The notes under the pieces were generated by a model. That model had not been told where the DNA came from, ran no database searches, and saw only the letters and a list, made by a program, of their open reading frames with translations. A stretch of DNA of 64,000 nt from IMG/VR virus record IMGVR_UViG_3300046328_001173, one strand, 5' to 3'. The translations under genes and the position numbers were made by a program. The DNA is from an uncultured virus (IMG/VR IMGVR_UViG_3300046328_001173) (lineage: Duplodnaviria; Heunggongvirae; Uroviricota; Caudoviricetes). Below are positions 4,369 to 44,223 of the stretch, piece after piece (within the stretch, counting starts at the first letter, position 1; each line of letters starts with the position of its first letter).

Positions 4369-4436
4369 GCTCTTATAGTTTAATGGAAAAATCTCTGATT
4401 ATTCAGATGTTCTTGGTTCGATTCCAGGTGAGAGCA
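4369..4436 (+). ncRNA. tRNA-like RNA with a 4-nt anticodon loop (no readable anticodon)
   Basis: Acceptor GCTCTTA/TGAGAGC, D-arm, TCTGA-TTAT-TCAGA, T-arm CTTGG-TTCGATT-CCAGG, discriminator A. Confidence 0.8.
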
Positions 4437-4461
4437 ATAAACTTTTTAATACCCCAAAACT

Positions 4462-4770
4462 ATGAAAACTATTATCGCAAAAGTTCTGATTCCTTCATTT
4501 GAAGTTGCAGTCAATGAATATTTGAAACAGCCTGCTTTTGCTAATGATTTTGAGAGAGGTTTAGTTAGAGAAACTTTATCAGAAGTTTGGGAAGACAATT
4601 CTCATTCTTTTGCTAAATACGTTCCTAAACATTTATTACAACCTGAGACAACAGAAGTTGTTTTGGAAGATGTAACAAGAATCTGGCAAAATTATGTCAG
4701 AGTAATGTGGAAGGGTAAAGTAGAGAAAATTTGTGAAATCGATTCAATTGTGTCGTATATTCGCAAGTAG
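4462..4770 (+). CDS. Hypothetical protein
   Basis: ORF track. Confidence 0.8.
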   Translation: MKTIIAKVLIPSFEVAVNEYLKQPAFANDFERGLVRETLSEVWEDNSHSFAKYVPKHLLQPETTEVVLEDVTRIWQNYVRVMWKGKVEKICEIDSIVSYIRK

Positions 4771-5332
4771 TCTTGATTATTAAACTCTATCATTGATTTG
4801 GTAGGGTTTTTTAATTTTAAATTAAAACTAAAAAATAATAAATATGAAACTATTCCCAATTTGTGAGTGTGATAATGAAGAAAAAGCAGTTAAAATAGCT
4901 TCTTTTTTTGTTAATAAAGGACTAATTTTCCATTATGTTTATACTGGAAATTCTAGTAAACCTTATTTGGTAATTTCAAATCAAGAAGGTTTAACTGCTT
5001 TTGAAAAATGGACTATGGAAAATACAAAATAAGTCCTTTTCCTATTATTGAGTGCAAACTCTAATAGATTTTACTGGTTTTAGGAAATCAGATAATAAAA
5101 AAATACGTAAAAAAAGATATTAAATACAATACTGTTTTATATAAGGCAATCGGTAAAAACATTTGGAAAAGATGTTCGATTTTCTCAAACAGAGATGTAG
5201 ATAATTATATATACACGCGATTCTAAGCGTGTATATGTACTTATCGAAATACATTGAAATAAAGAAGTACATCTTTTTTTTGATAAAGATCTAAGGGCAA
5301 ATGAAAAATAAAACTCACATAAATTTTTAACA

Positions 5333-6259
5333 TTATTGTTGTTTTATCATGGTGAACTTACCAGATTTGTATTTTATTAGGTTATTCTCTTTAAGGATAT
5401 TCTCTAATAATTCTTTTCTGAAATAACTTTCACTCTTGTCTAGTCTTTTACAAAAAACATCAATAAAGTTTCCCATTGAAATAGGAAAAGTGATATCTAT
5501 TAATATATCAAGATATTTTTGTTTCTTATTTTCCTCTGTTTCTTTGATATCAACTACTTTCTTAAACATAGTAGTCTGTTCATCAAACTCTACAAAGAAA
5601 TCAAAGCCTTTTCCCTCTCTTAATTTTGTAGACTTTATTTTATATTTATGTTTGTATTGTGCAATAGCTAATGAAGCAACACTTTTTTGTTCTAAGAATG
5701 AACCTAAGTGTCCTCTTGCTTTTGCATTAATGCCTGCGTCTTCGTTCTGATGAATTATTAATATTATAGAACAATTATAATCTTTTATTATCTTATTTAA
5801 TTCAGATAGTAGAGTGGTTGAGTTGCCTATATCATTAATATTTTCAATGAAATCTGCAAATTGGTCTATGATAATTAGATATGGTGGGAATTCTTTACAA
5901 GCACTATTCACTGAACCTAATTTATCAGGAGTATCCAAATCCCAAAACATTAATAAATCTTCTTTATCTTGACTTACTTGTTCTAAAATCTTTAATAGTC
6001 TTTTTTGAAGATGATATTTAGACATTTCAGTAGAGAAATAAAGAATTTTTTTATCAGGAGGACAAGGTGTGTATGTTAATCCTAGAGTATCTTCACCATT
6101 AAGAAGACCTACTAACATATTCATTACTAGTCTAGATTTACCTGAACCTACTTCACCTTTTATTAAACAAAAAGAGTTAGAAGTCAATATTTCAGATCCA
6201 TCATTTTGAATTACAATAAGTGGTTGCATATAATTAGAATTTCTTGTTATGTGTTCCAT
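5333..6259 (-). CDS. AAA_25 / RepA-like (RecA-fold) ATPase/helicase
   Basis: Walker A GEVGSGKS, FSTE, Walker B IIDQFAD, IIHQN...ARGHLGS motifs. Confidence 0.8.
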   Translation of the reverse strand: MEHITRNSNYMQPLIVIQNDGSEILTSNSFCLIKGEVGSGKSRLVMNMLVGLLNGEDTLGLTYTPCPPDKKILYFSTEMSKYHLQKRLLKILEQVSQDKEDLLMFWDLDTPDKLGSVNSACKEFPPYLIIIDQFADFIENINDIGNSTTLLSELNKIIKDYNCSIILIIHQNEDAGINAKARGHLGSFLEQKSVASLAIAQYKHKYKIKSTKLREGKGFDFFVEFDEQTTMFKKVVDIKETEENKKQKYLDILIDITFPISMGNFIDVFCKRLDKSESYFRKELLENILKENNLIKYKSGKFTMIKQQ

Positions 6260-6304
6260 TGATTTGTTTTTAAATTAACACTGTTACATATATTTTATTA
6301 GGTA

Positions 6305-6338
6305 CAAATGTAACATATTTTTTTAAGATAAAATCAAA
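6305..6338 (-). promoter_or_regulatory. Bacteroidota-type sigma70 promoter for the AAA_25 gene
   Basis: Minus strand TACATTTG (-7 box) with TTTG ~22 nt upstream. Confidence 0.55.
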
Positions 6339-6490
6339 ATAATTGAAAGAAAAAATGAAAACAACACAGTGTCCACAGCACTTTAAAATAAATAGTCTCT
6401 GATGACTGTGGTGTTCCTGATGCTGGAACTTAATAGAAAAATAGCAAATAGACTTTTAGTAAATCCCAAACCTTTTTAAATCCCCTTAAA

Positions 6491-6931
6491 ATGGATATCA
6501 CAAATATCAAATCTCAAGCAATCCTTAATCATTTCTTTGGAACTCTTACACCTGATACAAAGGAAGTAATTGCAGTTCAAAATACTTTGTATAACAAAGG
6601 AGAAGAATCAATTGCAATGAGTATTGAACACGCAATTCAGTTCATTGAAGAAGATCAGCCAGAAGAGTTAACCTTCTTTAAAACTGAATTAAAGACTTCT
6701 GATGAATGGTTGTATTGGTCAATAGAAGAAAAAGAAAACATTGGAAATTGGAAGCTATTATTTACAGATTCTATTTCTAAGAATGGATTCTATGAATTCA
6801 TTGCTGTAAATTCTGATTACGGTGCGGTATTTGGACATTTGAATGGAGAAATCTATTCAACTTCAAATGAAGCTATGAAGAACTTCTTTGAGAGTTATGT
6901 TCCAGTTCAAGTGGATTGGGATAGAGATTAG
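6491..6931 (+). CDS. Hypothetical acidic protein
   Basis: ORF track. Confidence 0.85.
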   Translation: MDITNIKSQAILNHFFGTLTPDTKEVIAVQNTLYNKGEESIAMSIEHAIQFIEEDQPEELTFFKTELKTSDEWLYWSIEEKENIGNWKLLFTDSISKNGFYEFIAVNSDYGAVFGHLNGEIYSTSNEAMKNFFESYVPVQVDWDRD

Positions 6932-7001
6932 TTTTGATATATAAAAAGAATAACTTAGAAGAAGTATTGATCTAAGTTATTCTCTTTTGACTTACTGTGC
7001 T

Positions 7002-7541
7002 TTAATTCTCTATAGAACCTTTATAAAAATATTTCGAATTAAGTTGAAATATATTTCTAGATTTAGATAGAAGTAATCCTTTCTTTACAAGGTTAGATAA
7101 AGCATTATTAAGTGTTCCCAATTTAATGTTTAGTTTACTCGCTAATATTTGTTTAAATGTTTTAATTAAAGCAAATTCAGTATTAGTAGAATACATTAAC
7201 AATAATTGGCAATATAGTTTTATCTCTGGCAAAGAAAGACTAGAAGAAAAGAGTTTTAGTAAATCAGATGTAAAGATATGTGAAGGAGATTCTATTTCAG
7301 TTAAGATATTCTCTACTGTTTCTTTTAAAGCCTCTGTTGCTTCAATATTAAACCATTCACCTCTAATTTTATTAGATTGAAAATGTTTATGAAGTATTGA
7401 TTCTTCAATATAAGAACCTTCAATTGTAAATAATACTTCTAATTTCTCAGAAGAACCTGTTTGTAATTGTGATAGTCTTTTGGTAATGTTCTCTGTTACA
7501 CCTATTTTGATGTGATGAGAGTTGGAGATGAAGTATATCAT
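7002..7541 (-). CDS. GIY-YIG (T5orf172/MUG113-like) nuclease fused to a RepL-like winged helix
   Basis: IYFI..IKIG.T..I.KRL.QLQTG..E..LH..F...RGEWF; C-terminal FQLNSKYFYKG. Confidence 0.8.
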   Translation of the reverse strand: MIYFISNSHHIKIGVTENITKRLSQLQTGSSEKLEVLFTIEGSYIEESILHKHFQSNKIRGEWFNIEATEALKETVENILTEIESPSHIFTSDLLKLFSSSLSLPEIKLYCQLLLMYSTNTEFALIKTFKQILASKLNIKLGTLNNALSNLVKKGLLLSKSRNIFQLNSKYFYKGSIEN

Positions 7542-7571
7542 AGTAAATTTTATTATGTTAAACACTATATA

Positions 7572-7579
7572 CAAATATA
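7572..7579 (-). promoter_or_regulatory. Bacteroidota -7 promoter box for the GIY-YIG gene
   Basis: TATATTTG on minus strand ~30 nt upstream of ATG 7541. Confidence 0.45.
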
Positions 7580-7713
7580 TTAAATATTTTTTAGTGTAAC
7601 TAACAATTTAAAGTAATTCTTTGTTTTAAACTACCATACTAAGTTTCAAAGGCTTAGATACATTATAAATGTATAGTAGTGAGGAGAACAAACACGTGTA
7701 AAATCAACTACAC

Positions 7714-7744
7714 TTGGAATACAGACAAAAATCTGCTATCTTTG
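7714..7744 (+). promoter_or_regulatory. Bacteroidota-type sigma70 promoter
   Basis: TTG-N20-TATCTTTG, 24 nt upstream of ATG 7769. Confidence 0.7.
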
Positions 7745-7768
7745 TTTATAATTTAAAAAAAAATAAAA

Positions 7769-8608
7769 ATGAATATAAGTAAATTAAAGCCAGGAATGGT
7801 AATCAAGAATTACAAAGAATTATGTGAATTGTTAGAAGAGAAAGTGAAAAATGGTGCAGCTAAAGTGTATCAAATGAAATTATTTGATACATTAGTAAAA
7901 TATAAGAAAGTAAAATATAGTTTTCATATTGAAGAAATCTATAAAACACCCACCAAATTGCTGAATAAAAGAAACATATCTACAAAAAGATTTACAATTA
8001 AATCAAGATTTTCTAACTATAAATTATTTCTTTGTAACGAGTCCAACAAAGATTTATCTTGTAGATCAATAGAGAAAATCAAATTTAGATGTCAAAACTG
8101 TTTCGCTTTAATTAATAAAAAAATTTGTAATGTTTTAAGAAAAAGTGAACCTATTTGTAATAATTGTAAAGCAGAACTAAACTTAGCAAAATTGTCTATG
8201 TATGAAAGAAAAATATTTAACGAATTAAAATTATTTAATTTGTGTTTTGATAGAGAAGTTTTAATTGATGATCTTAAAACTTCTAATGGAGCATATAGGT
8301 TCGATTTTGTAATATATAAAAACAAGATTCCTTATGTAATAGAATATGACGGAGAGTTTCACGATATAACAGAATCTATAAAAATAAATGATTTAATAAA
8401 AACTAAATATTGTCAAGAAAAAGGAATAGAGTTATTAAGAATAAACTACAAAGAAAAACTTAATTGGAAATCAATATTATACGAATTTTTAGCTAAACAT
8501 AACATTTGTAATATTGATAGTTTAGTAATCTCTTTGTCAGAAGAAAAAGAAAAATTATTAGAAAGAATAAAAGAAATTGAGTTTGTTTTAATAAAGTATA
8601 AAATGTGA
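7769..8608 (+). CDS. Putative PD-(D/E)XK endonuclease (DUF2726/Vsr-like) with Zn-ribbon, homing-endonuclease-like
   Basis: CxxC...CxxC; YRFDF...IEYDGEFH...D..K..YC...GI.LLRI.Y. Confidence 0.75.
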   Translation: MNISKLKPGMVIKNYKELCELLEEKVKNGAAKVYQMKLFDTLVKYKKVKYSFHIEEIYKTPTKLLNKRNISTKRFTIKSRFSNYKLFLCNESNKDLSCRSIEKIKFRCQNCFALINKKICNVLRKSEPICNNCKAELNLAKLSMYERKIFNELKLFNLCFDREVLIDDLKTSNGAYRFDFVIYKNKIPYVIEYDGEFHDITESIKINDLIKTKYCQEKGIELLRINYKEKLNWKSILYEFLAKHNICNIDSLVISLSEEKEKLLERIKEIEFVLIKYKM

Positions 8609-8914
8609 AATAGCTGTAAAAAGTTGTTTCACAAAAAATTTATTGAAATCAAAAATACCCACACAAACAACACAATTCCAATAATTATTCCATTCAAATG
8701 CACCCTAAATAAAGGAATTTTACTGAGAGATATCAAGAGAATGGTAAGAATATTAATTCCATAAAAATTAATTTTCAATTCTCTCTTCTCATCTACTTTT
8801 TGTAGAAAATGGATAGATATATTTATGACAAGTTCACCTAATAAAAACATTTCCCATTTTTTCCTCAATTCCACCAAATTTCTTCAATTTTTCATAAGAA
8901 GGAGTAAGAAGTCT

Positions 8915-9080
8915 TAAAAAAGAATTAAGTAGTTTTAAGAAGAATTAAAAAAGAATTAAAAAAGGATTAAGTAAAAGAGTGTTAAGGATTAAGAAGTATT
9001 AAGGAATATCGAAATAATATCGAAATAATATTGAAAAATTAGTTAAGAATTAAGAAGGATTAAGAAAAAGTAATTGAGAT
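8915..9080. repeat. Purine-rich degenerate repeats (AAGAATTAA-like; TATCGAAATAA x2-3)
   Basis: Visible repeated units in a long non-coding gap. Confidence 0.6.
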
Positions 9081-9541
9081 TGATGATTAAATTAATTAAT
9101 TTCTCTCTCTTAATATCTTATTTTATTCTATTCTAAAACAACTCTTTTCTGGAACAACTGGAAAAGCACTGAAAAGAAAAAAAGGGGAATTCATTTGATT
9201 TAGTTATTCATTTAACTCTTTATATTTTATTTAATCTAAGAAACCTCGATTCCAGACAAGAGGGTTCAAAAATCACGGCTCTTTTGGCTGGGATTTGATT
9301 TTTGAACCCGTTCAACAAATTAGGCGACAATCCAGATAAATTTCAAGATTTTTAATTCACAAGAATATTATTAGTGAAGAAAAAGTGAAAGAAAAAGAAA
9401 TCCAAGAGAAATTTTTAAGAAGTATTTTTTAAGAAGTTCTCTTCTCTTATATACAGGTTGTATTTAATCCTCGTATGTAACTACCAATAGATGTATTGGT
9501 GTAGCTTGTAAATGTTTTTTAAGGTCTAACAAGTGAAATAA

Positions 9542-10009
9542 ATGGATAGTGGTGCAAAGATGCTCAAACCAAAAATATGTAAAATTATGTTACGACATAG
9601 AATAAATCTTTATGGTAGAAAAATTTCTGCTGTAAATGTTTTTGATAGATATTTTGTTCAAGGTAAACATTCTCAATGGTTCAAAGACAACAATGAATGT
9701 GGATTTTTTGCTTCAGATGGGTTTAAAAATAAATATTTTGTTACACCTTACTCATCTATTAAAAAAGATGGAGATGTTTTAAATTATTATTTATTTTTTG
9801 GATCTACATCAAGAAATGAAGAAGGAAGATTGATGTTTGCAAATTCCTCAAAAGAACTTTTAGCGTTAATTAAATTAGAAGCTTGGAAAGAGATAAAACA
9901 ATTGATAGATGAAAAGAAAGCTATTGTAATGTTTTCTATTTATAATCATTGTGGAGAAACTACTAAAAAACATTTAAGAAAACATTTAAAAAAATATCTG
10001 ACAAAATAG
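9542..10009 (+). CDS. Hypothetical protein
   Basis: ORF track (start may be ATG 9587). Confidence 0.75.
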   Translation: MDSGAKMLKPKICKIMLRHRINLYGRKISAVNVFDRYFVQGKHSQWFKDNNECGFFASDGFKNKYFVTPYSSIKKDGDVLNYYLFFGSTSRNEEGRLMFANSSKELLALIKLEAWKEIKQLIDEKKAIVMFSIYNHCGETTKKHLRKHLKKYLTK

Positions 10010-10086
10010 TTAGATATTTCTTTATATCTAGAATAGTTTAAACCTTGTACTATATTATAAACAAGGGCTTTTTGTTTAATGACAAA

Positions 10087-10488
10087 ATGAAAAAGTTGAC
10101 AATTTTAAATCCTAAATTTATGCTAGTCACACCTGAAGTATTCAATGCTGCTGTAAAAGCTGCTTCACTATTAAATAGTTGCAATGGTGATTTTAATGTG
10201 TATTGTAATAACTTTTTAGTCAATCTTCCAACTAATCATAATTTAGACAGCAATACAAAAGCATCTTTAAGAGTTTCTTTCAATGAAGCTTTGTGGTATA
10301 TCAAAACATTTCCTTTGTCAAAGATAACTCTTGGCGAATCTGGTTCTGTGAAAATTGATTTACAATCTCTTGAAGAGGTAAAACAATATTTAATGGAATT
10401 GCACGAAAGCCCAGATAGATATATCGATCAAAAGGAGTGTGAACAACATATTAGTTGCCTGGAAAAAGAAATCTCTAAACTTTCTTAG
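10087..10488 (+). CDS. Hypothetical protein (likely start ATG ~10087)
   Basis: ORF track. Confidence 0.75.
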   Translation: MKKLTILNPKFMLVTPEVFNAAVKAASLLNSCNGDFNVYCNNFLVNLPTNHNLDSNTKASLRVSFNEALWYIKTFPLSKITLGESGSVKIDLQSLEEVKQYLMELHESPDRYIDQKECEQHISCLEKEISKLS

Positions 10489-10814
10489 AAGATGAACTCA
10501 TACCAACAACTTTTAGCTGAAATGCTGGAAGACCTAAGAGAAATGAATCGCTTATTAAAACAATTAGTAAAATAGTTGTTGAAGTGATTCAATTCTTTAC
10601 AACACCATTTGATTAATTTCATTTGGTGTTTTTTATTCCTTTTTAATATCTTTTCTTTATATAGTCTGCACCTATATAATTATACTCAATTACTACCTTC
10701 ACAGGCGTTTATATTCCTTATTAGCTTTGGATATAAATCGGAATAGGTGCAGACGAAATAATTTAGCTAATTATCAGTAAACCCATTTTAAAAAACTAAA
10801 AAACAAAACCCAAA

Positions 10815-12065
10815 ATGAAAAATCTTGTTTTAATTCTCGTATTTGTATTGTCTTTTGTAGCGAATTCTTTTGCTCAGACAGTTTCAACAATTAATTTTTC
10901 TTCTAATTCTGCTGTATTGAAAAACACAGTAATGAATTTGGAATTGACTGCAACTTCTTCTATCACTGTAATCGGACATACTGATAGCAGAGGTTCAGAA
11001 GAATACAACTTAGCTTTGTCTTTAAGAAGAGCTGAGGAAGTGAAGTCGCATTTGGTATCATTAGGTTATTCTGCTGACTTAATCACTGTAATTGGAAAAG
11101 GAGAATCTCAACCTTTATCTGATAATTCAAGTGTCCAAGGTAGAGCAACTAATAGAAGAGTAGAAATCGTAGTTTCAAGTTCAACTTCAACTTCAACTAT
11201 TGAAGATATTATTAATGGAAATAGCAACTCTGATCAAGTTACTTCTTCTATTGATAATGTTTCTAGTATTTCTAGTGTTGTAGTAGACTCTTCTTCAATC
11301 ACTTCTTTGAAAAACTCTTTTATTACAGTTGCAAATGTAATTTCAGATACAATTCATATCGAAGTAGTTGAATCAGAAACTACACCAGAAGACTATTATG
11401 CAATGTATGATTCTTTAATCAAATTGCATAGCGATTCAGTGAAAACTGTAATTGTTCACGAGACTTTTTATTCTTATGAACAAGAAAAAGTGGTTAAAAA
11501 AGCATTTAAAGACTCAGTTGCTAATGAGAAACGTACTCGTAAAGCAATTTATAAAGATTCTTTGAGTTCTTTGAAAGACCAATTGAAAGCATCAAAAGAG
11601 TCAGGAGATCTTGGTTTAGCATTTTGGACAAGAAGTCAAATAGCTATGTTAAAAGCTACTTACTTTAAAAATGATTATGATCCTAAAGGATTTTTTACTT
11701 ACTATGAGTATATTCCTTGCTATCCTAATGTATCTACATTAGATTTGAATATTCATAGAATTTTGAATTATTCCCCTTTAGTATATCCAATTGAGTATGC
11801 AGCTCAAGGAATTAAAGCTTTGGCTCATTCTTCATTGAAATCTCGTGCTAGATATCTTGCAATGAAAGCGTTACAACACGGTAGCTACCAAGCTTATATT
11901 AATATTCGTACAAACCATTATGGTGGGTCGAATATGATTAAATATGCTAAGAAGTATCGTAATCTTTGTAAAGCCAATAAAGGCAAAGCAGAGATTAAGG
12001 ATGTGAAAGATGTAGCAACTTTTGAACAAAATGTAGAAGTCTCTTCATCAGATAATGAAAAATAG
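10815..12065 (+). CDS. OmpA-family (OmpA_C peptidoglycan-binding) secreted protein
   Basis: Signal peptide ending SFA-Q; GHTDSRGS..YN..LS.RRA..V...L...G...G.GE..P...N....GRA.NRRVEI; Ser-rich linker. Confidence 0.9.
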   Translation: MKNLVLILVFVLSFVANSFAQTVSTINFSSNSAVLKNTVMNLELTATSSITVIGHTDSRGSEEYNLALSLRRAEEVKSHLVSLGYSADLITVIGKGESQPLSDNSSVQGRATNRRVEIVVSSSTSTSTIEDIINGNSNSDQVTSSIDNVSSISSVVVDSSSITSLKNSFITVANVISDTIHIEVVESETTPEDYYAMYDSLIKLHSDSVKTVIVHETFYSYEQEKVVKKAFKDSVANEKRTRKAIYKDSLSSLKDQLKASKESGDLGLAFWTRSQIAMLKATYFKNDYDPKGFFTYYEYIPCYPNVSTLDLNIHRILNYSPLVYPIEYAAQGIKALAHSSLKSRARYLAMKALQHGSYQAYINIRTNHYGGSNMIKYAKKYRNLCKANKGKAEIKDVKDVATFEQNVEVSSSDNEK

Positions 12066-12541
12066 TTGTTGACAAATAATTCTTGAAAAAGAGTTTTTGA
12101 AAAAGAGCTTCTCATTATCTGATTGTCCATTAAAACCAGTACAAAGTATCTTACAAAATATCTAATACCAATAACTAATTCATTCAATCAAATCCTTTTT
12201 ATTTCTCTTTAATTCTCTTTATTTCTCTTCTCTTAATATTACTATCATCTATTGAATGAAATCTTGAAATCCTGCCCTTGTTGTGAAACATTAGTAAAAG
12301 ATTTCAAGATTGGTTATTCTATCCTTCTACTATTAGAAGTTGATTAAAGAATAATTAGAGTTTAATTATTGGTAATGATATTGAGATTGATAAGAATGGA
12401 AGATTGAATGGTAAAATTGAATGGTAAAATGGTTTGGTTTGATTGAGTTGGTTATGAAGTATTTGATATATTTGATATATTGTGTTGGTTTTAGTGAAGA
12501 AGCAAAGTTTAAATTATTATTCATTTTTAATTCAATTGTTT

Positions 12542-12835
12542 ATGTTTAATTTAGTTTATTTAGAGGCATTTAAAATGCTAAAAGAACACGGAATCAACCT
12601 TAAAACTATTTCTGAACAAGAATTAGAAAATAGATTGAGCCTGCATCCAGATTTGAGTAAAGCTGTTGATATTGTAAGATACTACCATTCCTTTGTAGAC
12701 TTACTTATTGTATATAGAAGAGCTTTATCATCTGGAAATTCCACAATTGCAAATAAATCAGAAAAAATTTTGAAGGAAGAATATCCTAATGAGTTTGATG
12801 AGTATTGCAATAGTTTGAATCAAAAATTCGAGTAA
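12542..12835 (+). CDS. Hypothetical protein (likely start ATG 12542)
   Basis: ORF track. Confidence 0.7.
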   Translation: MFNLVYLEAFKMLKEHGINLKTISEQELENRLSLHPDLSKAVDIVRYYHSFVDLLIVYRRALSSGNSTIANKSEKILKEEYPNEFDEYCNSLNQKFE

Positions 12836-13262: not shown

Positions 13263-13331
13263 AGAATAGATTGGTTATATTAATGTTTAATACACATTGA
13301 TATAAGTGGGTCCGATTCCCATACTATTCTC
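13263..13331 (+). ncRNA. D-stemless tRNA-like RNA (acceptor + one long hairpin + T-arm)
   Basis: AGAATAG/CTATTCT; 12-bp TTATATTAATGT/ACATTGATATAA; GTGGG-TCCGATT-CCCAT. Confidence 0.6.
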
Positions 13332-13447
13332 TAAAATGCGCTGAATACTAGAAATAGTTTTGATTTTTACTACAAAATTTTAACAATCAAAACTATTTCG
13401 ATATTTTTATGTAAAAAAATTATAATTTAATTCAAACCAAATAGTTT

Positions 13448-13948: not shown

Positions 13949-13974
13949 ATAATTGAATATAATTAATCAAAACA

Positions 13975-14418: not shown

Positions 14419-14701
14419 AAGAAAAAAAAATTAATTCATCAGAGTTAGACTCTGGAATGTAGTTGTAGTGCTTTAATGTTATTTCGATAACCTCTTACTG
14501 ACAAAAATCAACTATTCATTGACTATAAGACTCTTAGTAATGTAATAGTGTAATATTGCACGAATAGAGATTAAGTAGTGATTACTCTTTTAAGAAAGAG
14601 ATTCATAACAAGAATTAAAAATGTTTAGTCATACTATTAGACAATAAAAAATAGTTAATGATGTAATTTCATCTGCTGATAAGAAATCAAGAAGAGACTC
14701 A

Positions 14702-14766
14702 GGGATTAAGGTTAATTAGATTCTATTAAGGATTTAATTAAAGTGGTTGAACTCCATTAATCTTCA
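14702..14766 (+). ncRNA. Second D-stemless tRNA-like element
   Basis: GGGATTA/TAATCTT; 13-bp TTAATTAGATTCT/AGGATTTAATTAA-type hairpin; GTGG-TTGAACT-CCAT. Confidence 0.45.
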
Positions 14767-19468: not shown

Positions 19469-19610
19469 GTCTTGGTGGTGGAATTGGTAGACATATTATC
19501 TGAAAAGATAAGCCTGATAAAGAAAACAAAACTCTGGTAAAGTTTATAATCTTTATTACTTAATACCAATTAAGTAAAAGGGTGTGCAGGTTTAATTTCT
19601 GTTCGAAACA
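19469..19610 (+). ncRNA. Degenerate tRNA-Leu-like RNA with non-canonical anticodon arm and very large variable region
   Basis: GTGGTGGAATTGGTAGACA D-arm; TTATCT-GAAA-AGATAA; branched ~70-nt insert; GCAGG-TTTAATT-TCTGT; TCGAAAC-A-CAA. Confidence 0.7.
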
Positions 19611-24799: not shown

Positions 24800-24872
24800 G
24801 GAAATGTAGCTTAATCGGTAGAATATTATGCTTATAACATAAAGGTACTGAGATCGTAACCCAGCATTTCCA
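24800..24872 (+). tRNA. tRNA with TAT anticodon (Ile-UAU, or decayed Met/Ile-CAU); arms carry mismatches
   Basis: GGAAATG/CATTTCC; TTATG-CTTATAA-CATAA; CTGAG-ATCGTAA-CCCAG; ends A-CAA. Confidence 0.75.
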
Positions 24873-31836: not shown

Positions 31837-33175
31837 ATGAAAAACAATTTATAGTTAATAGCAGAAAAATTTCATTCTTTTAACATACAATCTTATTTTG
31901 TACGTGGTTTTGTTAGAGATGTATTATTGGGTATCAAATCAGACGATATTGATATTTGTCTTGTTGGAGCTACAAAAGAACAAGTAATGAAAGTATTACG
32001 TTCTTTTCCATTTCTATTATCTGTTGCAGAAGAAGTGGGAAATAATTTTCCTGTTTGGATTGCTGACATTGAAAGATTTGGTAAAATAGATTTTGCTCTT
32101 GCAAGAGGTGAAAAAAAAATTGGTATAACTCGTCAAGATTTTGAATGTACAACTGAGGCTATTACTATTGAAGAAGATCTTCTTAGAAGAGATTTGACTA
32201 TCAATAGTATAGCTAAAAATGTACTCACAGAAGAATTAATAGACCTTTTTAATGGTGTTCAACATCTTAAAAATAGGTTAGCTCATCCTACATCAGAAGC
32301 ATTTGCAAAAGATAGTTTAAGAGTACTAAAAGCAGCAAGATTTTGTAGTAGATTTGATTTGAAACCTTCTCAATCGTTAATAGATATATGCAGCAATTTA
32401 AAACCTACTGATATTTCTAATGAAAGAGTTGGAATGGAATTGTATAAAGCAATGAAACAAGCTATAAAACCTTCAATATTTTTTAATTTCTTACGTGAAG
32501 TGAATTGGTTAGGATATTTTTTAAAGAGCTTGAAGATTTAATTAAGATTCTTCAATCACCAATCTATCACCCTGAAGGAGATGCTTATACTCATACTATG
32601 CTTTCTATAGATGAAGCAACTGATTATTTTACTAGAATTGTGATGTTATGTCACGATTTAGGTAAAGCTGTAAATACTACTATTTCTGAAGACGGTTTTA
32701 TACGATCAATAGGTCACGAAGTTGCTAGTGTGCCTCTTTCACTAGAAATGATGAAAAGAATACATTTATTGGATTATAAGTTTCAAGAACAAGTATCTTT
32801 GTTGGTAAAACTTCACATGATTCACACACAGAATATTTCAGAAAAAATAGTAAGAAAAACTTTACGTCAATTGTTGAATAAAGGTCTATTTTATGAAAAT
32901 TTAGTTGAAGTTTGTCGTTGTGATGTATCAGGTAGAACACCTTTACTTAAACATACTCCTGATATAGGACAAGTTAGAGCAAAAGAATTGTTAGAACAAG
33001 GTTTAATGGTTCCAATAGTTACAGGTAACCTTTTAGTCTCATTAGGTATGAAACCAAGTAAACAAATGGAAGATTTTATTAAAAAGCACTAGAATTTCAA
33101 GATAGGGGTATACTAAATTCTAGTAACTGGAAAGCTGTTATGAAAGGTGCTGGTTTTGTTATTCAATCATTTTAA
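31837..33175 (+). pseudogene. cca: tRNA nucleotidyltransferase (CCA-adding, class II) with HD domain, disrupted
   Basis: VRD.LLG...DDID, DFALAR.E, EEDL.RRDLTIN, HPEGD..TH, CHDLGK; TAG at 31852, frameshifts in T-run ~32520 and A-run ~33083. Confidence 0.9.
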
Positions 33176-33186
33176 AAACTAAAAAA

Positions 33187-36733: not shown

Positions 36734-36836
36734 CGTAGGAATATCAAACTATATTAGAATGTTCATTAAATAGAACAAACAAAGTAGCAAGGTGAATAAG
36801 TAGCAATACTTAGAGGTTCGAGTCCTTTTTCTACGA
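36734..36836 (+). ncRNA. tRNA-like RNA: acceptor + T-arm with rearranged interior
   Basis: CGTAGGA/TTCTACG-A-CAA; AGAGG-TTCGAGT-CCTTT; inner TGTTC/GAACA and AAGTA-GCAA-TACTT hairpins. Confidence 0.65.
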
Positions 36837-37035
36837 CAAAATTAATTTACTTTAAAAATCCTTCACAATAATATTTTAATATACTATACCCGTTGATTTG
36901 ACGGTTTTGTTATGTTGAAATATTATAGTATTTTCTTGATAATTTGTATCAATGAGATTAAAATAGTGTTTTAAATTTACTGATTTCAATCAAAAATAAA
37001 ATTAATCTTTAACCAAATCTCAATAATTTTAAATT

Positions 37036-37350
37036 ATGACAAACCTAATAAAACTACAAAGATAGTATTCTTCTCAATGTGACGGTGATTGGGAACATTC
37101 TTATGGTATTAAAATCGATACATTAAACAATTCAAGTTGGAGTATTATGATAGATTTAACTAATACTAAATATGAAAATCTAAAAATTAAATCTGTAGCT
37201 TATTTTAATAAAGAAGATGTTGAAAAAATTGACTGGTATGGTTATGCAATAGAAAATAATAAATTTATTGCTTGTGGAGATTCTAATAAACTAGATATGT
37301 TGATTGGAGTGTTCTTAAATATTGTTGAACCAAATAAATTAAAGTTTTAA
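37036..37350 (+). pseudogene. Imm53-family immunity protein, disrupted
   Basis: LQR*YSSQCDGDWEHSYGIKIDTLNNSSW..IDL; TAG 37063 at the conserved Trp. Confidence 0.8.
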
Positions 37351-40410: not shown

Positions 40411-41730
40411 ATGGCATCTCAAAAATCATTTTCAGATCTTTCTCAATTAGTTGCAGTTGATTTTGTAACAACATCAATTCCTAATATTAAAGTTATTAAT
40501 AAAGATAATAAAAATATTCCTATTGAATCTTCTTTTGCTGACTCAATACTAAAAATTGTTTCAGTTTTAGAAAGAAGTGAAAGCTTTACTCATTCTGAAA
40601 TTGTAAATTTTTTAGATAAATTGCAAGAATTTACTCAATTATCTAAAATTGCAATACAACATTCTAAAGAAGAAAGTATTGAAAAAGCTTTTGCTCAAGA
40701 AGTGGTCAATGACGCAACTGCTGTTGATGAATTTGTTCAACAGTATTCAGAAGAAACTACTCTTGATAATTTACTCACAGAAATTGAAAGTTATCTTCAA
40801 ACATCACAGTCTGTTGAATTATCAAATTTAGTTGCTGAAATACAATATAACAAAGAAGAAGTTGATTTTGATACTTTAAACAATATTGAAAGACTTTCTA
40901 TTGCTTTTAATGCAACTAAACAAAAAGATTTTGAAGCAATTTTTATTCGCAATAAAATTCAAGAATCTTTCAATCAATTTGAAGAAAAAAAGTCTTTCTA
41001 TTTAAAAAATGTTTCTAGTGAAGAATTAGAAGAGTTTCAAAGACAAATTCTTGATGGAGTAGAGTTTGTTGAAGTAGACTCTAAAATCAATTCATTGATT
41101 GTTTCAAATAAAGTTAAACAAAATCTAATTAATACTGTAAATGAACTCAAACAATCTGAATTAAATCTTATTATTAAAGATTTTACAGATGTAAATGAAA
41201 CAACAGTGTTAAATTGGTTAATGTTTTATTTTTCTTTTAAAAAGTTAGACAGTTCTATTCAAGAGAACAAGCTCTATATGTCTGGTATCTCTAAAGGTGT
41301 CTACTCATTACAAGAAGTTTTATATCTTTTAAAACCAGTTAAAGAAGAAATTAAAGAAGTAAGCAATAGTTCAACATCAACCTTTTCAAAAGATTCTGAT
41401 TATGTTATGTTAGTATCTAAAGAAACAATCTTATCTTGGGAGGAAACTAAAACATTTCCAGAAACAATACAAAACAAATCTAATTTTTTGGTTAAAATTG
41501 CTACAAGTAAAAGAACTAGTAAAAACATTTTTACAGAAAATTGTAAGTTTCATACTCACGTTGGTATTGTTTGTAATTCTATTACAGCAGAATCAATTAA
41601 AGATGTTTCTATTACATTTTTAAGTGTAGAAAAAAGTAAAAATGTTGATTATAGACAAGTTTCTATTGATTTGTCTAAAAAATCAAGCAATAGTTATGTT
41701 ATAGGTATTTTTGATTTAAAAAATCGATAA
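40411..41730 (+). CDS. Hypothetical acidic coiled-coil protein, 439 aa
   Basis: Long ORF. Confidence 0.85.
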   Translation: MASQKSFSDLSQLVAVDFVTTSIPNIKVINKDNKNIPIESSFADSILKIVSVLERSESFTHSEIVNFLDKLQEFTQLSKIAIQHSKEESIEKAFAQEVVNDATAVDEFVQQYSEETTLDNLLTEIESYLQTSQSVELSNLVAEIQYNKEEVDFDTLNNIERLSIAFNATKQKDFEAIFIRNKIQESFNQFEEKKSFYLKNVSSEELEEFQRQILDGVEFVEVDSKINSLIVSNKVKQNLINTVNELKQSELNLIIKDFTDVNETTVLNWLMFYFSFKKLDSSIQENKLYMSGISKGVYSLQEVLYLLKPVKEEIKEVSNSSTSTFSKDSDYVMLVSKETILSWEETKTFPETIQNKSNFLVKIATSKRTSKNIFTENCKFHTHVGIVCNSITAESIKDVSITFLSVEKSKNVDYRQVSIDLSKKSSNSYVIGIFDLKNR

Positions 41731-41797
41731 TACTTTCTGTAACATTTGATAGTACACAGTAATTTATTAATAATTCACCAAAAGAACTTCTTATGAT

Positions 41798-42790
41798 ATG
41801 GTTAGAAGTATTTTAAACTCAATCATTAATTTTAATAAAATGAATAATCAAGCAGAATTAGGTATCAATTCTAATGTTTCACCAAAAGTTGTTGAAAAAG
41901 CTAATGACTTTAATAAACTTAGAAAAAAATATAAGTCAAGAGGTATTATTTTAACACAAGACGCTTATTTTGAAGCTTATAAACAAATATGCTCAGGAAA
42001 AATTACTTTGATTGATTTCGAAAGAACTCTCAGTAGAGAATATGATGAATATCAATTTGAAGTTCATAAAGAAGAATTTGCTAAATATTATAGCGATTCT
42101 AAAATGTCTGATTTAACAAAAGGTTTTCGTTTAGGTACTTTGAATTACAAATCTGTAAAAACTGCTTTTAATGCTTTTGTAGTTAAAAAAAGATTGTTAG
42201 AAGTTCAAGTTCAAACTTTACAAATTATTGTTTCAGAACCTGTAATAAAAGCATTAGGAAATTCTTTAAAATTACATCCTACTGACCCAAAAGAATCAAT
42301 CAAATCTGTATTGCCTTCGTACCTTAAATTAAAAGGAATACAAAATTACAATCTTGCTGATTATGAAGATGTTATAAACGGAGAAATTTCTTTAATAGAG
42401 AAATTATCACCTAAGAATTACTTAATATTACTTTCCATTAGAAATCTTAGATGGAGAGGTAATTTACGTAGAGCTTATTTAAATTCTTCTTTAACGGAAA
42501 ACACTTACACTCAAATACAAGAGTTTTTACGACAAGATAAGGGATTGATTAGCACAACAGATAAGTTTTCTGTTACATATAAACCAGCAACTAAACCTAC
42601 ACATCTTTTATTATTGGTTAATGAAAGAGATAAATCTATTTTAGAATCCGAGTGTGATTTTAAAGAAGTTGTATCTAAATCTGTTTCTTTCTCATTAAAA
42701 GAAAAAACTAATGCTTGTAGAATACTTCTTAAAGAAAAATTTGCTATTAATTATAGTTATATTTCTTTCTTAGAAGTTAAATACAATTAA
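41798..42790 (+). CDS. Hypothetical protein (start possibly ATG 41840)
   Basis: Long ORF. Confidence 0.85.
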   Translation: MVRSILNSIINFNKMNNQAELGINSNVSPKVVEKANDFNKLRKKYKSRGIILTQDAYFEAYKQICSGKITLIDFERTLSREYDEYQFEVHKEEFAKYYSDSKMSDLTKGFRLGTLNYKSVKTAFNAFVVKKRLLEVQVQTLQIIVSEPVIKALGNSLKLHPTDPKESIKSVLPSYLKLKGIQNYNLADYEDVINGEISLIEKLSPKNYLILLSIRNLRWRGNLRRAYLNSSLTENTYTQIQEFLRQDKGLISTTDKFSVTYKPATKPTHLLLLVNERDKSILESECDFKEVVSKSVSFSLKEKTNACRILLKEKFAINYSYISFLEVKYN

Positions 42791-42811
42791 AACCAATATT
42801 AAATTATTTAT

Positions 42812-42934
42812 GTAGTAAATGTCGAGTTGGAACGGCAGGAACGGCTAAAGCGAAGGCAACACTATGCTAAGACTGGACGAATATTGGTCTGTTGCTATTC
42901 AATATTCTCGTGAGTTCGAGTCTCACTTACTACA
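42812..42934 (+). ncRNA. Type-II-tRNA-like RNA with the anticodon arm replaced by an insert
   Basis: GTAGTAA/TTACTAC-A; GTC-GAGTTGGAAC-GGC D-arm; GAATATTG/CAATATTC arm; GTGAG-TTCGAGT-CTCAC. Confidence 0.75.
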
Positions 42935-44223
42935 TAAATAATTTTTAAATTTATTTATTTTTTATCACTTAAATCAAAAATATATGACACCAATTCAATT
43001 TATTTCCTTACAAGGAATGATAGAAAAAGGCAGATTAGAAATGGGAACTAATGTAGCACTAAAAAATAGGTCCGCTTCTGTGTTTCCTTCTATGAGTGAA
43101 AAAGAGTTGATTAATAGTATGACTATTAAACTCAATAGTTTGAAGAAAATTCTTTCTAGAACTGAGATTAATGAAGATACTTATCTTACTTGTTTAATTT
43201 CATTTATAGACTCGGTAGGAGTTCTTAAATCTTCAAAAGAAATTTTAAAACAGTTTTTTAATTATTCTACAATAAGTAACAAAATTTATCAAAATTGGTT
43301 ACTTAAAATAGAATTAGAAAAAGAAGAAGAAAAGAAACTTCAAGACGTAAATTAGAGTCAAATTAACTAAATAGGTTAAATTAACAACCTATTTAGTTTT
43401 TTATTATTTGAACAATATAAAAACCATACATAATATGAAATTATTTAAAACAAAATCAGATTTTAGTGGTTATTTTGATAAAGTAGTAACAAAATACTAT
43501 ATTTCTACTAAATCGGGTAAAGAACTTGAAGTATCAAAAGAAGATGCTGAATATAGTAAAGAAGTAACAAGTAAAGAATACTCTCGAACATTAAAAAATA
43601 AAGAATTTTTAGAGTATATTAAATTAACTGTTATTAGATATAAAGAAAATAAAAGATATTTTCTTGAATTATTGACTTCAAAAGAATATATAAATGAATA
43701 TGAAGCTTTTAAAGCATTGTGTAAACAAAGTAAAATAAATCCTTTTAAAACATTTCCTGCTATTGTAAAACAATATTCTGGATTGAATCATAGATTAAAT
43801 AAAGCTTACAGAAATTGGTTAAATGGTGTTTGGAAAGATTGTAATGATGAAAAAGAAATAGTTGAATATATTGAAGATTGTTTAAATATCAAATAGAAAA
43901 TTTAATATTTATGTATAAAATAATCAGTCCAAAAGAAATAGTAGATAATTTTGATGAAGATCAATATATTACTCTACAAAATTTAGTTGATACAGCAACA
44001 AAACATAATATAGACTTTACAAAGTGTAAAATTATGTCATTAAATATTCCACAAGAACTAATTGATAATGGAAGTATTCTTGTTACAGAACAAAATACAG
44101 GAGATTTACATGAAATAGAATTGTACAATTCTTTAAATGAAATTGTTGTTATTGACAATAATATTTATTTAACTATATAATAATTTAAACTCTTAAACTT
44201 TTAAACTTTTAAACTTTAATATT

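What the first reader, a model, noticed from the sequence alone, without database searches (positions are those of the whole stretch)
4369..42944. Dispersed family of tRNA-like RNAs that keep the acceptor and T-arm but lack a usable anticodon
Seen: six intergenic elements (4369, 13263, 14702, 19469, 36734, 42812) have an acceptor-type stem stacked on a T-arm-like hairpin. Each has a different, non-canonical anticodon region: a 4-nt loop, a GAAA tetraloop, a single long helix or a large insert. Only the 24800 element has a normal 7-nt loop. They occur singly, just upstream of genes, and none encodes CCA, while the same region carries a CCA-adding enzyme and two RNA ligases. Established: RNase P, RNase Z, CCA enzymes and EF-Tu read the acceptor/T-arm 'top half', and anti-phage anticodon nucleases such as PrrC cut anticodon loops. 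Inference: these may be anticodon-less tRNA mimics acting as transcript-processing signals or as decoys for tRNA-targeting defences, rather than simple decay products.
Basis: partly seen in the sequence, partly recalled or inferred. Interest (0 to 1): 0.85.

Follow-up and report, generated by a model that had tools for sequence, protein, structure and literature searches.

The report
Non-decoding tRNA-shaped genes in jumbo phage
A large uncultured freshwater phage carries one normal tRNA gene and at least four tRNA-derived genes that keep the tRNA's top half but cannot read codons, a poorly understood kind of phage RNA already seen in phage T4, and they may be working RNAs or decaying relics.

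Summary
The window is an accessory stretch, rich in homing endonucleases, of an AT-rich (25-26% GC) freshwater jumbo phage of at least 273 kb.

**Elements**
- E1 (4369), E5 (36734) and E6 (42812) are solid. Each has a canonical T-arm and a 7/7 acceptor stem: 3 hits against 0.1 expected in shuffles.
- E1 is a full cloverleaf (Rfam 50.8 bits) with a 4-6 nt anticodon loop.
- E4 (19469) is a probable tRNA-Leu derivative (16.9 bits, below threshold).
- E2 and E3 are a different, weaker three-helix fold. E2 does have a normal-looking 7-nt loop.
- The elements share no sequence with each other, so they are a class, not a family.

**Context**
- None encodes CCA.
- The phage's CCA-enzyme gene is broken: an in-frame stop and a -1 frameshift.
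- I found one RNA ligase in the window, not two.
- A distant relative with an intact CCA enzyme (about 55% identical) carries the same three types.
- T4 species 1 RNA has the same layout but no detectable sequence similarity.

**Verdict**
These are most likely tRNA-scaffold RNAs that are processed and CCA-tailed but do not decode. Relic pseudogenes are a serious rival. Decoy and processing-signal roles are untested, and I found no RNA data. This is a new member of a known, poorly understood kind.

The parts
4369..4436 (+). E1: a complete tRNA cloverleaf (acceptor 7/7, D-stem 4/4, anticodon stem 5/5, T-stem 5/5). The anticodon loop is only 4 nt (UUAU), or 6 nt (AUUAUU) if the closing pair is open. 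Discriminator A, no CCA. It lies 25 nt upstream of the ATG at 4462.
   Evidence: ARAGORN tRNA-??? (ta). Rfam RF00005 50.8 bits. Strict top-half descriptor. The best full-length blastn hits are phage tRNA-Gln genes at 73-77% identity.
13263..13331 (+). E2: acceptor AGAATAG/CTATTCT, connector ATTGG, a 12-bp helix closed by the 7-nt loop UUAAUAC, and a T-like arm GUGGG/UCCGAUU/CCCAU. There is no D-arm. A 15-bp inverted repeat follows at 13351-13399.
   Evidence: The MFE equals the centroid, z = -3.0. Layout descriptor: 2 real hits against 0.03/0.17 in shuffles, written post hoc. No Rfam hit at E <= 10. Contigs of two relatives (runs X4, X5) break synteny exactly at 13331.
14701..14766 (+). E3: acceptor GGGAUUA/UAAUCUU (with two G.U pairs), a 12-13 bp AU helix with a 4-6 nt loop, and a T-like arm AGUGG/UUGAACU/CCAUU. 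It ends 44 nt upstream of the ATG at 14811. This is the weakest element.
   Evidence: Fold z = -2.3. Layout descriptor. No Rfam hit. No counterpart in G003 or G004.
19469..19610 (+). E4: a tRNA-Leu-type 5' part (GGUGGAAUUGGUAGAC). It has a 5-bp hairpin with a 6-nt loop UGAAAA (alternatively a GAAA tetraloop), about 75 nt of extra sequence, a weak T-arm GCAGG/UUUAAUU/UCUGU, and an acceptor paired 6 of 7. It ends 20 nt upstream of the ATG at 19631.
   Evidence: Rfam tRNA 16.9 bits, E = 0.59 in a 301-nt search, below the 29-bit cut-off. The 5' 47 nt match annotated phage tRNA-Leu genes. The 11-mer GAATTGGTAGA sits at the same position as in R_4662 of G003.
24800..24872 (+). An ordinary tRNA-Ile(UAU) with a 7-nt anticodon loop. 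Its T-loop is AUCGUAA and its T-stem has one A.C mismatch. No CCA is encoded. It ends 31 nt upstream of the ATG at 24904.
   Evidence: ARAGORN. Rfam 47.6 bits.
36734..36836 (+). E5: acceptor CGUAGGA/UUCUACG (extendable to 8-9 bp) and a canonical T-arm at 36812-36828. About 70 nt lie between them, including an AAGUA-GCAA-UACUU hairpin. There is no D-arm. A terminator-like hairpin follows at 36890-36904.
   Evidence: Strict descriptor. Fold z = -2.05. A 12-mer, AAGGTGAATAAG, is shared with R_12011 of G003 at the matching place before the T-arm; P about 6e-4 for that pair, with 28 pairs looked at. Terminator scan.
42810..42935 (+). E6: a 9-bp terminal helix (the inner 7 bp being GUAGUAA/UUACUAC), a long irregular arm, a 9-bp hairpin, and a canonical T-arm GUGAG/UUCGAGU/CUCAC. 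It ends 49 nt upstream of the ATG at 42984.
   Evidence: Strict descriptor. The MFE equals the centroid, z = -2.56. Rfam sees only the T-arm (tmRNA local match, 8 bits). No tRNA match for its 5' part.
31837..33092 (+). A disrupted CCA-adding enzyme gene. The ATG is at 31837, with an in-frame TAG at 31852-31854. An invariant Gly is replaced by Arg at 31903-31905. A -1 frame change occurs at T TTT TTA (32517-32523), followed after 6 nt by a 7-bp hairpin (32530-32555).
   Evidence: Pfam PolyA_pol and phrog_2244 hits split over two ORFs. 74% identity to an intact 445-aa relative. Sequence and translation. Relatives are 440-450 aa long and unbroken.
60856..61806 (+). The only RNA-ligase-like ORF found in the window (T4 Rnl1/gp63-like).
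   Evidence: phrog_562, E = 3.3e-10. No other ligase hit among the 96 window ORFs scanned.

Best explanation
E1, E4, E5 and E6 are genes descended from tRNAs in which the decoding end has been shortened or replaced. The acceptor stem and T-arm, and in E1 and E4 also the D-arm, are kept.

**Inferred life cycle**
- They are transcribed on the same strand as the surrounding genes.
- Host RNase P cuts them out at the 5' end, and 3' trimming frees the other end.
- The host CCA enzyme adds the tail, because the phage's own copy is broken.
- They then persist as stable RNAs that cannot decode.

In this reading the tRNA frame is a scaffold for processing and stability, and the variable middle part is the cargo. 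A by-product is a defined 5' end for the downstream mRNA.

This is the same kind of molecule as T4 species 1 RNA (rnaC) and the oversized 'intron' tRNAs reported in Lak megaphages.

**Shown:** the anatomy, its excess over chance, and its recurrence in a relative.
**Inferred:** transcription, processing, CCA tailing, stability and any function.

E2 and E3 are a separate and less certain three-helix fold.
For: **Excess over chance.** The strict top-half descriptor gives 3 hits (E1, E5, E6), all on the + strand and all intergenic, in 273 kb. Shuffles gave 0.1.

**Uneven preservation.**
- E5 and E6 keep 7/7 to 9/9 acceptor pairs and a consensus T-loop, while the rest is unrecognisable to Rfam.
- E1 keeps all 21 stem pairs despite its unusable loop.

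**Recurrence in relative G003** (244.7 kb, intact CCA enzyme, about 55% identical to the window's). Within 13 kb it has one normal tRNA-Met plus three aberrant elements:
- a 69-nt tRNA with a 6-nt loop (47.6 bits);
- a 110-nt element with 52 nt in place of the anticodon arm (43.3 bits), which shares the 12-mer with E5;
- a 121-nt Leu-type element with a 6-nt-loop hairpin (29.4 bits), matching E4's design.

Short-loop tRNAs are rare elsewhere: 2 of 131 ARAGORN calls in 80 phage loci, and one of those two is in G003.

**T4 rnaC.** It is flagged by the same descriptor and has the same layout of terminal helix, long arm, hairpin and T-arm.

**Position.** Five of the seven elements, including the real tRNA-Ile, end 20-49 nt before the next start codon.

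**Module boundary.** Contigs of relatives break synteny exactly at E2's 3' end.
Against: - There is no expression evidence.
- No close orthologues could be fetched, so there is no covariation test.
- The phage's CCA gene carries three lesions.
- The window has many long gaps without ORFs, so this region tolerates relics.
- E4 and E5 score lower than their G003 counterparts: 16.9 against 29.4 bits, and no hit against 43.3 bits. That could mean decay in progress.
- The orthology of E1, E4 and E5 with the G003 elements rests on short shared words and shared design. Apart from the CCA gene, only two weak ORF matches link L046 to the window, at non-corresponding positions.
- There is no sequence similarity to T4 rnaC or rnaD.
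- The insert sequences show no significant antisense targets in the phage.
Confidence: 0.5

Rival explanations
1. They are relics. These would be former tRNA genes of an accessory region that is being lost, at different stages of decay and with no present function.
For: - The CCA-enzyme gene beside them is itself broken in three ways, while relatives keep it intact.
- T-loops are degenerate in E2, E3 and E4, and E4's acceptor has a mismatch.
- E5 has lost the D-arm that its probable G003 counterpart keeps.
- The region is full of homing endonucleases and long stretches without ORFs.
- ORFs of 100 aa or more cover only 81.5% of the genome.
Against: - Neutral decay in a 25% GC genome should erode GC-rich T-arms and acceptor pairs as fast as the rest. 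Yet E1, E5 and E6 keep them perfectly.
- The same three aberrant designs occur in G003, which has an intact CCA enzyme, across a divergence of about 45% in protein sequence.
- Phages usually delete dead DNA quickly (general knowledge, not tested here).
Confidence: 0.3
2. They are decoys. The top-half mimics would soak up host anti-phage enzymes that attack tRNAs.
For: - Some defences read only the acceptor stem, T-arm and CCA tail. Cas12a3 still cleaves substrates after the tRNA loops are removed (PMC12851939, passages read).
- Jumbo phages pair tRNAs with repair enzymes (PMC7824862, passages read).
- The phage encodes two RNA ligases genome-wide.
Against: - Anticodon nucleases such as PrrC recognise the anticodon loop, which these RNAs lack. 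They would not bind such enzymes (established knowledge, recalled).
- The phage's CCA-repair enzyme is broken.
- No host, no defence system and no expression level is known.
- One copy of each element is a weak sponge unless it is very highly expressed.
Confidence: 0.1
3. They are pure punctuation signals. On this view they are tRNA-like cleavage sites, like plant mitochondrial t-elements. Their only role is to let RNase P and RNase Z cut long phage transcripts and set mRNA ends.
For: - Five of seven elements end 20-49 nt upstream of the next start codon on the same strand.
- t-elements are a described precedent (PMC1920247, search listing and abstract only).
- A minimal top half is enough for RNase P (established knowledge, recalled).
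Against: - E2 and E5 are followed by terminator-type hairpins rather than by a gene.
- Most of the roughly 100 gene junctions in the window have no such element.
- E1 keeps a full D-arm and anticodon stem that punctuation would not need.
- In a compact phage genome, anything intergenic lies near a start codon.
Confidence: 0.15
4. E2 and E3 (and perhaps E4) are chance folds or ordinary intergenic hairpins in AT-rich DNA, not tRNA-related elements.
For: - Relaxed top-half matches are no more frequent than in shuffles: 7 against 9.9.
- Permissive ARAGORN modes (ps80; mitochondrial mode) 'tRNAs' in the window, which is noise.
- E2 and E3 get no Rfam hit and have no counterpart in G003 or G004.
- The descriptor that singles them out was written after seeing them.
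Against: - That layout occurs only at these two places in 273 kb, on both strands. It reached 2 in 0 of 60 global shuffles and 1 of 60 block shuffles.
- Both lie on the coding strand, 1.4 kb apart.
- Relatives' contigs break exactly at E2's 3' end.
Confidence: 0.35
5. E4-E6 are working tRNAs interrupted by small introns. On this view the inserts are removed after transcription, as proposed for Lak megaphage tRNAs.
For: - Oversized phage tRNAs with conserved inserts are in print (bioRxiv 10.1101/356790, passages read).
- In locus L077, two tandem long tRNAs are read by ARAGORN's intron mode as tRNAs with 42- and 55-nt inserts. The inserts share a motif.
Against: - ARAGORN's intron mode at default threshold finds none of E4-E6.
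- Of 1,715 single-deletion variants of each element, 1 (E4), 0 (E5) and 0 (E6) are called a tRNA.
- The inserts are far too short for group I introns, the known bacterial type (recalled).
- E1's problem is a missing triplet, not an insert.
Confidence: 0.05

Closest known systems
Phage T4 species 1 RNA (rnaC, 139 nt; with rnaD) of the T4 tRNA gene cluster
   Same: - It has a canonical T-arm (CCGGG/UUCGAAU/CCCGG) followed directly by a strand that pairs with a 5' segment.
- A long arm and a second hairpin take the place of the D and anticodon arms.
- It is not called a tRNA by ARAGORN and has no Rfam family.
- My top-half descriptor flags it.
- Its function is unknown (recalled).
   Different: - nhmmer finds no sequence similarity at E <= 10.
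- rnaC sits inside a tight tRNA cluster, whereas these elements are scattered singly over 40 kb.
- T4 has one or two such RNAs; this phage has four to six against a single normal tRNA.
- rnaC's processing and stability were shown at the bench (recalled). Nothing has been shown here.
'Enigmatic intron' tRNAs of Lak megaphages (Devoto et al., bioRxiv 10.1101/356790)
   Same: These are oversized 'pseudo' tRNAs in very large phages. They have conserved inserted sequences, and the genomes have large intergenic regions (passages read).
   Different: - There, removing the insert is predicted to give a normal tRNA.
- Here, a single excision does not restore one for E5 or E6, and does so for only 1 of 1,715 variants of E4.
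- Lak phages recode TAG. This phage fits code 11.
t-elements: tRNA-like processing signals next to mRNAs in plant mitochondria (PMC1920247)
   Same: They are tRNA-like acceptor/T-arm structures without decoding ability, placed next to mRNA ends. Five of the seven elements here end 20-49 nt before a start codon.
   Different: They occur in an organelle, not a phage. Cleavage was shown there and is not testable here. I saw only the search listing and abstract of that paper.
Bacterial Y RNAs (YrlA) with Ro60/Rsr
   Same: They are non-coding RNAs with a tRNA-like module that cannot decode. Some jumbo phages encode the Ro/TROVE partner (PMC7824862, passages).
   Different: - There is no Rfam Y-RNA match at E <= 10.
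- No TROVE domain was found in the window ORFs, nor in G001 or G003.
Phage tRNAs with altered anticodon loops that evade anticodon nucleases (van den Berg et al., eLife 2023, PMC10264068)
   Same: They are phage-encoded tRNAs whose anticodon loops differ from the host's.
   Different: Those remain 7-nt-loop decoders. E1's loop is too short to decode. I saw only the search listing and abstract.

Membership tests
Canonical tRNA (Rfam RF00005) | Score at or above the curated 29-bit cut-off | tested here: inconclusive
   E1 scores 50.8 bits and tRNA-Ile 47.6 bits, both over the cut-off. E4 scores 16.9 bits, below it. E2, E3, E5 and E6 give no match at E <= 10. So 2 of 7 pass.
Canonical tRNA (Rfam RF00005) | A 7-nt anticodon loop with U33 and a purine at position 37 | tested here: not met
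   E1 has a 4- or 6-nt loop. E3 and E4 have 6-nt loops or tetraloops. E5 and E6 have no such arm. The exception is E2, whose loop UUAAUAC fits by eye but sits on a 12-bp stem without a D-arm.
T4 rnaC-type tRNA-shaped stable RNA | A canonical T-arm stacked on a terminal helix, with the D and anticodon arms replaced by other structure | tested here: met
   E5 and E6 pass the same strict descriptor that picks out rnaC as an 'orphan top half'. The folds have the same order of arms.
T4 rnaC-type tRNA-shaped stable RNA | Sequence homology to rnaC or rnaD | tested here: not met
   nhmmer of rnaC and rnaD against the window and G003 gave no hit at E <= 10. The rnaC blastn relatives were 748 phage records, mostly Escherichia and other enterobacterial phages. 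No covariance model was built.
T4 rnaC-type tRNA-shaped stable RNA | Accumulates as a discrete processed RNA in infected cells | not testable with these tools
   No RNA run is listed for this phage.
Y RNA / Ro60 system | An Rfam Y-RNA match and a TROVE-domain partner protein | tested here: not met
   No Y-RNA family matched at E <= 10. TROVE is absent from the window ORFs and from G001 and G003.
tmRNA (standard, two-piece or permuted) | A tRNA-like domain plus a tag reading frame, recognised by ARAGORN or Rfam | tested here: not met
   ARAGORN -m at default threshold found none in 273 kb. Rfam gave only an 8-bit local T-arm match at E6. The tmRNA calls at ps80 are noise.
Intron-bearing phage tRNA (Lak type) | Removing one insert leaves a canonical tRNA | tested here: not met
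   ARAGORN's intron mode at default threshold found 2 genes in the window, neither being E4-E6. Single-deletion scans gave 1 of 1,715 (E4), 0 of 1,715 (E5) and 0 of 1,715 (E6).
t-element-like processing signal | A tRNA-like top half directly flanking an mRNA end, cleaved by RNase P or RNase Z | tested here: inconclusive
   The position fits for 5 of 7 elements, which end 20-49 nt before the next ATG. It does not fit for E2 or E5. Cleavage is not testable.

The most novel reading that the evidence does not exclude
Two freshwater jumbo phages may have inherited, from their common ancestor, a small set of tRNA frames that do not decode: a short-loop type, a Leu type and a type with a large insert. 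These would be kept under selection as competitive substrates for host immune enzymes that read only the acceptor stem, T-arm and CCA tail. Tail-cutting Cas12a3 and toxins that modify the CCA end are examples. The phage would thus shield the cell's real tRNAs without adding any decoding capacity.
Probability: 0.1. Interest if true: 0.8.

Novelty: new member of a known kind. Interest (0 to 1): 0.45.

Why it matters
What T4's tRNA-shaped stable RNAs do has been an open question for about fifty years. Oversized 'pseudo' tRNAs in huge phages are usually dismissed or called introns.

This window shows a phage with only one working tRNA but four to six tRNA-shaped genes. A distant relative carries the same designs. 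That suggests the tRNA frame itself, rather than decoding, is what these phages keep.

If the RNAs are made and CCA-tailed, they would be natural tRNA scaffolds, or mimics aimed at host enzymes that bind tRNAs. If they are not made, the locus is a clear case of a phage losing its tRNA toolkit, CCA enzyme included.

For annotation, such loci should not be counted as tRNAs.

Tried and rejected
**Searches for close relatives**
- Viral contigs searched with two flanking proteins returned none in one case and only the same genome's contig in the other.
- A 24-mer of E6 in viral contigs found nothing.
- A metagenome scan with the OmpA-like protein found nothing.
- A metagenome scan with a 20-mer of E1 gave 11 loci, all unrelated ordinary tRNAs or other sequence.
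- blastn of window 40411-43355 against cultured phages found no match.
- A gapped pattern taken from E5 gave 7 viral loci. One was G003 itself, one was an ordinary tRNA-Gly(UCC), and five were not tRNA-like.

**Expression**
- No RNA holder is listed among the 5 runs found.

**Laying contigs of four DNA runs on 4300-24299**
- The tables were cut (515 further differences not shown).
- Variation inside E1-E4 could therefore not be read.
- Only the joints at 13331 were usable, and one of them has a short side of 27 letters.

**Scans that gave noise**
- Promoter scans were at or below shuffle level in this AT-rich DNA.
- Permissive ARAGORN modes gave 49 calls at ps80 and 29 calls in mitochondrial mode.

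**Ideas tested and dropped**
- All-against-all blastn of the elements, and of the elements against the genome, found nothing shared beyond the T-loop and no significant antisense target.
- Stop-codon recoding: reading TAG or TGA as sense does not raise coverage more than chance.
- Doublet decoding by 6-nt loops to read through the lesions of the CCA gene: reading 'TA' at the TAG puts the ribosome into a closed frame (by eye).
- A 'Ser-like' D-arm in E6: its 5' part matches no phage tRNA.
- GTTCGATTC at 54404 lies inside a small ORF and is not an element.

**Papers**
- The T4 genome review could not be read because it is not held.
- A full-text search for T4 species 1 RNA found nothing.

Full report
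**What the window is**

The window has 26.3% GC and carries about a hundred small ORFs, nearly all on the + strand. Its first 17,087 bases are identical to the end of a 226,480-bp IMG/VR phage contig, G001. With the rest of the window, the phage is at least 273,393 bp at 25.1% GC. DNA runs that hold it are freshwater metagenomes, and none is listed as RNA. Few ORFs have family matches. Those that do include four or five homing-endonuclease types, an OmpA-like protein, a split CCA-adding enzyme and one Rnl1-like RNA ligase. Code 11 fits the genome.

**Checking the observation**

ARAGORN and Rfam at curated thresholds call only two genes in the window, and ARAGORN calls only the same two in all 273 kb. 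One is E1 at 4369-4436 (50.8 bits). The other is tRNA-Ile(UAU) at 24800-24872 (47.6 bits).

E1 is a full cloverleaf with every stem paired. Its anticodon loop is UUAU, or AUUAUU if the closing A-U pair is open. ARAGORN reports a two-base 'anticodon'.

To ask whether 'acceptor stacked on T-arm' exceeds chance, I scanned both strands of the 273 kb with a strict descriptor. It required a T-loop of TTCRA, G53/C61, a 5-bp T-stem, and then directly a 7/7 acceptor strand with its partner 55-170 nt upstream. It found three places, E1, E5 and E6, all on the + strand and all intergenic. Thirty dinucleotide shuffles gave a mean of 0.1 and a maximum of 2.

Relaxing to one loop mismatch and 6/7 pairs gave 7 hits against 9.9 expected. 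E2 and E3 therefore cannot be told from chance that way.

E2 and E3 do share a particular layout. It consists of a 7-bp terminal helix, a short connector, a contiguous 12-bp helix, and a 5-bp/7-nt hairpin with a G-C closing pair. A descriptor of that layout finds only these two in 273 kb. Sixty global shuffles gave 0.03 and sixty 200-nt block shuffles gave 0.17. One block shuffle reached 2. I wrote that descriptor after seeing the two elements, so the figure flatters them.

E4 aligns end to end with the Rfam tRNA model at only 16.9 bits. Its first 47 nt match annotated phage tRNA-Leu genes. The elements share nothing with each other beyond the T-loop.

None of the seven has CCA after the discriminator. 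Three of them (tRNA-Ile, E4, E5) have A-CAA there.

- *The CCA enzyme.* The gene is split. Against intact 440-450-aa relatives (74% identity to the nearest), it has an in-frame TAG at codon 6 and an Arg in place of an invariant Gly. It also needs a -1 shift at T TTT TTA (32517-32523). The heptamer is in the right frame for programmed slippage, and a 7-bp hairpin follows after 6 nt. With the other two lesions, though, a dead gene is the simpler reading.
- *The ligases.* Only one RNA ligase is in the window. An Rnl2-type gene lies about 180 kb away in G001.
- *Position relative to genes.* E2 and E5 are followed by terminator-type hairpins, not directly by genes.

**Relatives**

Close relatives could not be fetched. 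Contigs of runs X4 and X5, laid on 4300-24299, break synteny exactly at 13331, the 3' end of E2. They rejoin at 14809 or 16480. This treats E2's end as a module boundary. One of the joints has only 27 letters on its short side, and the tables of differences were cut before the elements.

Using an alignment of CCA enzymes, I fetched 80 phage loci totalling 1.42 Mb. The nearest complete relative is G003 (244.7 kb, 30% GC). Its CCA enzyme is intact and about 55% identical to the window's. Beyond that gene, only two weak ORF matches link this locus to the window, at non-corresponding positions. Within 13 kb beside that gene, G003 has one normal tRNA-Met and three aberrant elements:

| G003 element | Length | Rfam score | Features | Window counterpart |
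|---|---|---|---|---|
| R_17489 | 69 nt | 47.6 bits | Intact stems, 6-nt loop CUAUCA | E1's design and length |
| R_12011 | 110 nt | 43.3 bits | Perfect acceptor, D-arm and T-arm; 52 nt where the anticodon arm belongs | Shares the 12-mer AAGGTGAATAAG with E5 at the matching place before the T-arm (P about 6e-4 for the pair, 28 pairs looked at) |
| R_4662 | 121 nt | 29.4 bits | Leu-type D-arm, 5-bp hairpin with a 6-nt loop, long extra region | E4's design; the same 11-mer at the same position |

Among 131 ARAGORN calls in the 80 loci, only 2 have 6-nt loops, and one of those is in G003. G003 and G004 have nothing of the E2/E3 layout.

In seven other phage tRNA clusters, 2 of 84 Rfam tRNA matches exceed 100 nt. 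Both are in L077, in tandem, and their inserts share a motif.

**Known analogues**

T4 species 1 RNA (rnaC) has a canonical T-arm followed by a strand that pairs with an upstream segment. It also has a long arm and a 10-bp hairpin. My descriptor flags it. Rfam has no family for it: its best match is 17.5 bits to tRNA-Sec. An empty Rfam result for E5 and E6 therefore means little. nhmmer finds no similarity between rnaC or rnaD and the window or G003. This is a likeness of design, not shown homology.

The Lak megaphage preprint describes oversized 'pseudo' tRNAs with conserved 'enigmatic introns'. For E4-E6 a single excision does not restore a tRNA. The Y-RNA/Ro and tmRNA readings fail their tests.

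Earlier notes of this scan describe the same kind of RNA in several other phages, with the same closest analogue. They are unchecked leads, and I used them only to find the Lak preprint.

**Weighing the explanations**

Two facts pull in opposite directions.

*For maintained RNAs.*
- In a 25% GC genome, E1, E5 and E6 keep GC-rich T-arms and fully paired acceptor stems, while the decoding end is gone.
- The same three odd designs occur in a phage diverged by about 45% in a shared protein, one that has an intact CCA enzyme.

*For relics.*
- This phage's own CCA gene is broken.
- E2-E4 are degenerate.
- E4 and E5 look more eroded than their G003 counterparts.
- The region tolerates long non-coding gaps.

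I put 0.5 on tRNA-scaffold RNAs that are processed and CCA-tailed but do not decode, with their function open. I put 0.3 on relics. The remainder goes to pure punctuation, decoys and introns. E2 and E3 have about a one-in-three chance of being nothing tRNA-related.

The decoy idea in its PrrC form is illogical for RNAs without an anticodon loop. In a form aimed at defences that read the acceptor, T-arm and CCA tail, such as Cas12a3, it stays possible and is the most novel reading.

**Verdict**

The loci are a new member of a known but unexplained kind. Nothing about expression or function has been shown.

Noticed in passing
window 31837-33092: The CCA-adding enzyme gene has an in-frame TAG at 31852-31854 and an Arg for an invariant Gly at 31903-31905. 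It also has a -1 frame change at the classic slippery heptamer T TTT TTA (32517-32523), followed after 6 nt by a 7-bp hairpin (32530-32555). It is either a dead gene or, less likely, programmed frameshifting. Relatives are intact.
   Followed up: partly
window 13331, 14809, 16480: Contigs of related phages in two other freshwater runs join 13331 (the 3' end of E2) to 14809 or, with 31 other letters between, to 16480. The genes at 13448-14418, or up to 16461, therefore form a variable cassette that starts exactly at E2's end.
   Followed up: partly
window 13351-13399: A 15-bp perfect inverted repeat (GAAATAGTTTTGATT ... AATCAAAACTATTTC) followed by a T-run lies just after E2. It is probably a terminator.
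   Followed up: no
window 19610-19613, 24872-24875, 36836-36839: tRNA-Ile, E4 and E5 all continue A-CAA after the acceptor strand, one base away from A-CCA. By base composition, three of seven is unlikely (about 2e-4, reckoned after the fact). It may be a decayed CCA or a shared 3' processing cue.
   Followed up: no
window 7002-7574 (-), 7769-8608, 44875-45219, 57179-57757 (-): There are four homing-endonuclease-type genes (T5orf172/MUG113, two HNH, GIY-YIG). They mark the stretch as a hypervariable accessory region.
   Followed up: no
L077 3957-4076 and 4082-4210: These are two tandem long tRNAs (49.0 and 49.3 bits) in a 164-kb phage contig. Their 42- and 55-nt inserts in the anticodon loop share the motif CACATTACYGCAAGGTACG, with a GCAA-capped hairpin. 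The same insert thus sits in two different tRNA frames.
   Followed up: partly
L046 12011-12120 (G003): The long arm of this 110-nt tRNA-like element ends in a hairpin. If its last pair is open, the loop reads UUCUAGA, which is a CUA (amber) anticodon loop in form. ARAGORN's intron mode calls it tRNA-Pyl(cta).
   Followed up: no
L118 1527-1753: A permuted tmRNA (Rfam RF04321, 92.7 bits) lies in a phage contig that also carries 20 tRNAs and a CCA enzyme.
   Followed up: no
window 17087/17088: The IMG/VR contig G001, rated 95% complete, ends at window position 17087. The window runs on for 46.9 kb, so the phage genome is larger than that record suggests.
   Followed up: yes
window 37147-37350: A 67-aa ORF with an Imm53 (immunity protein 53) domain, E = 6.6e-10, lies downstream of E5.
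   Followed up: no
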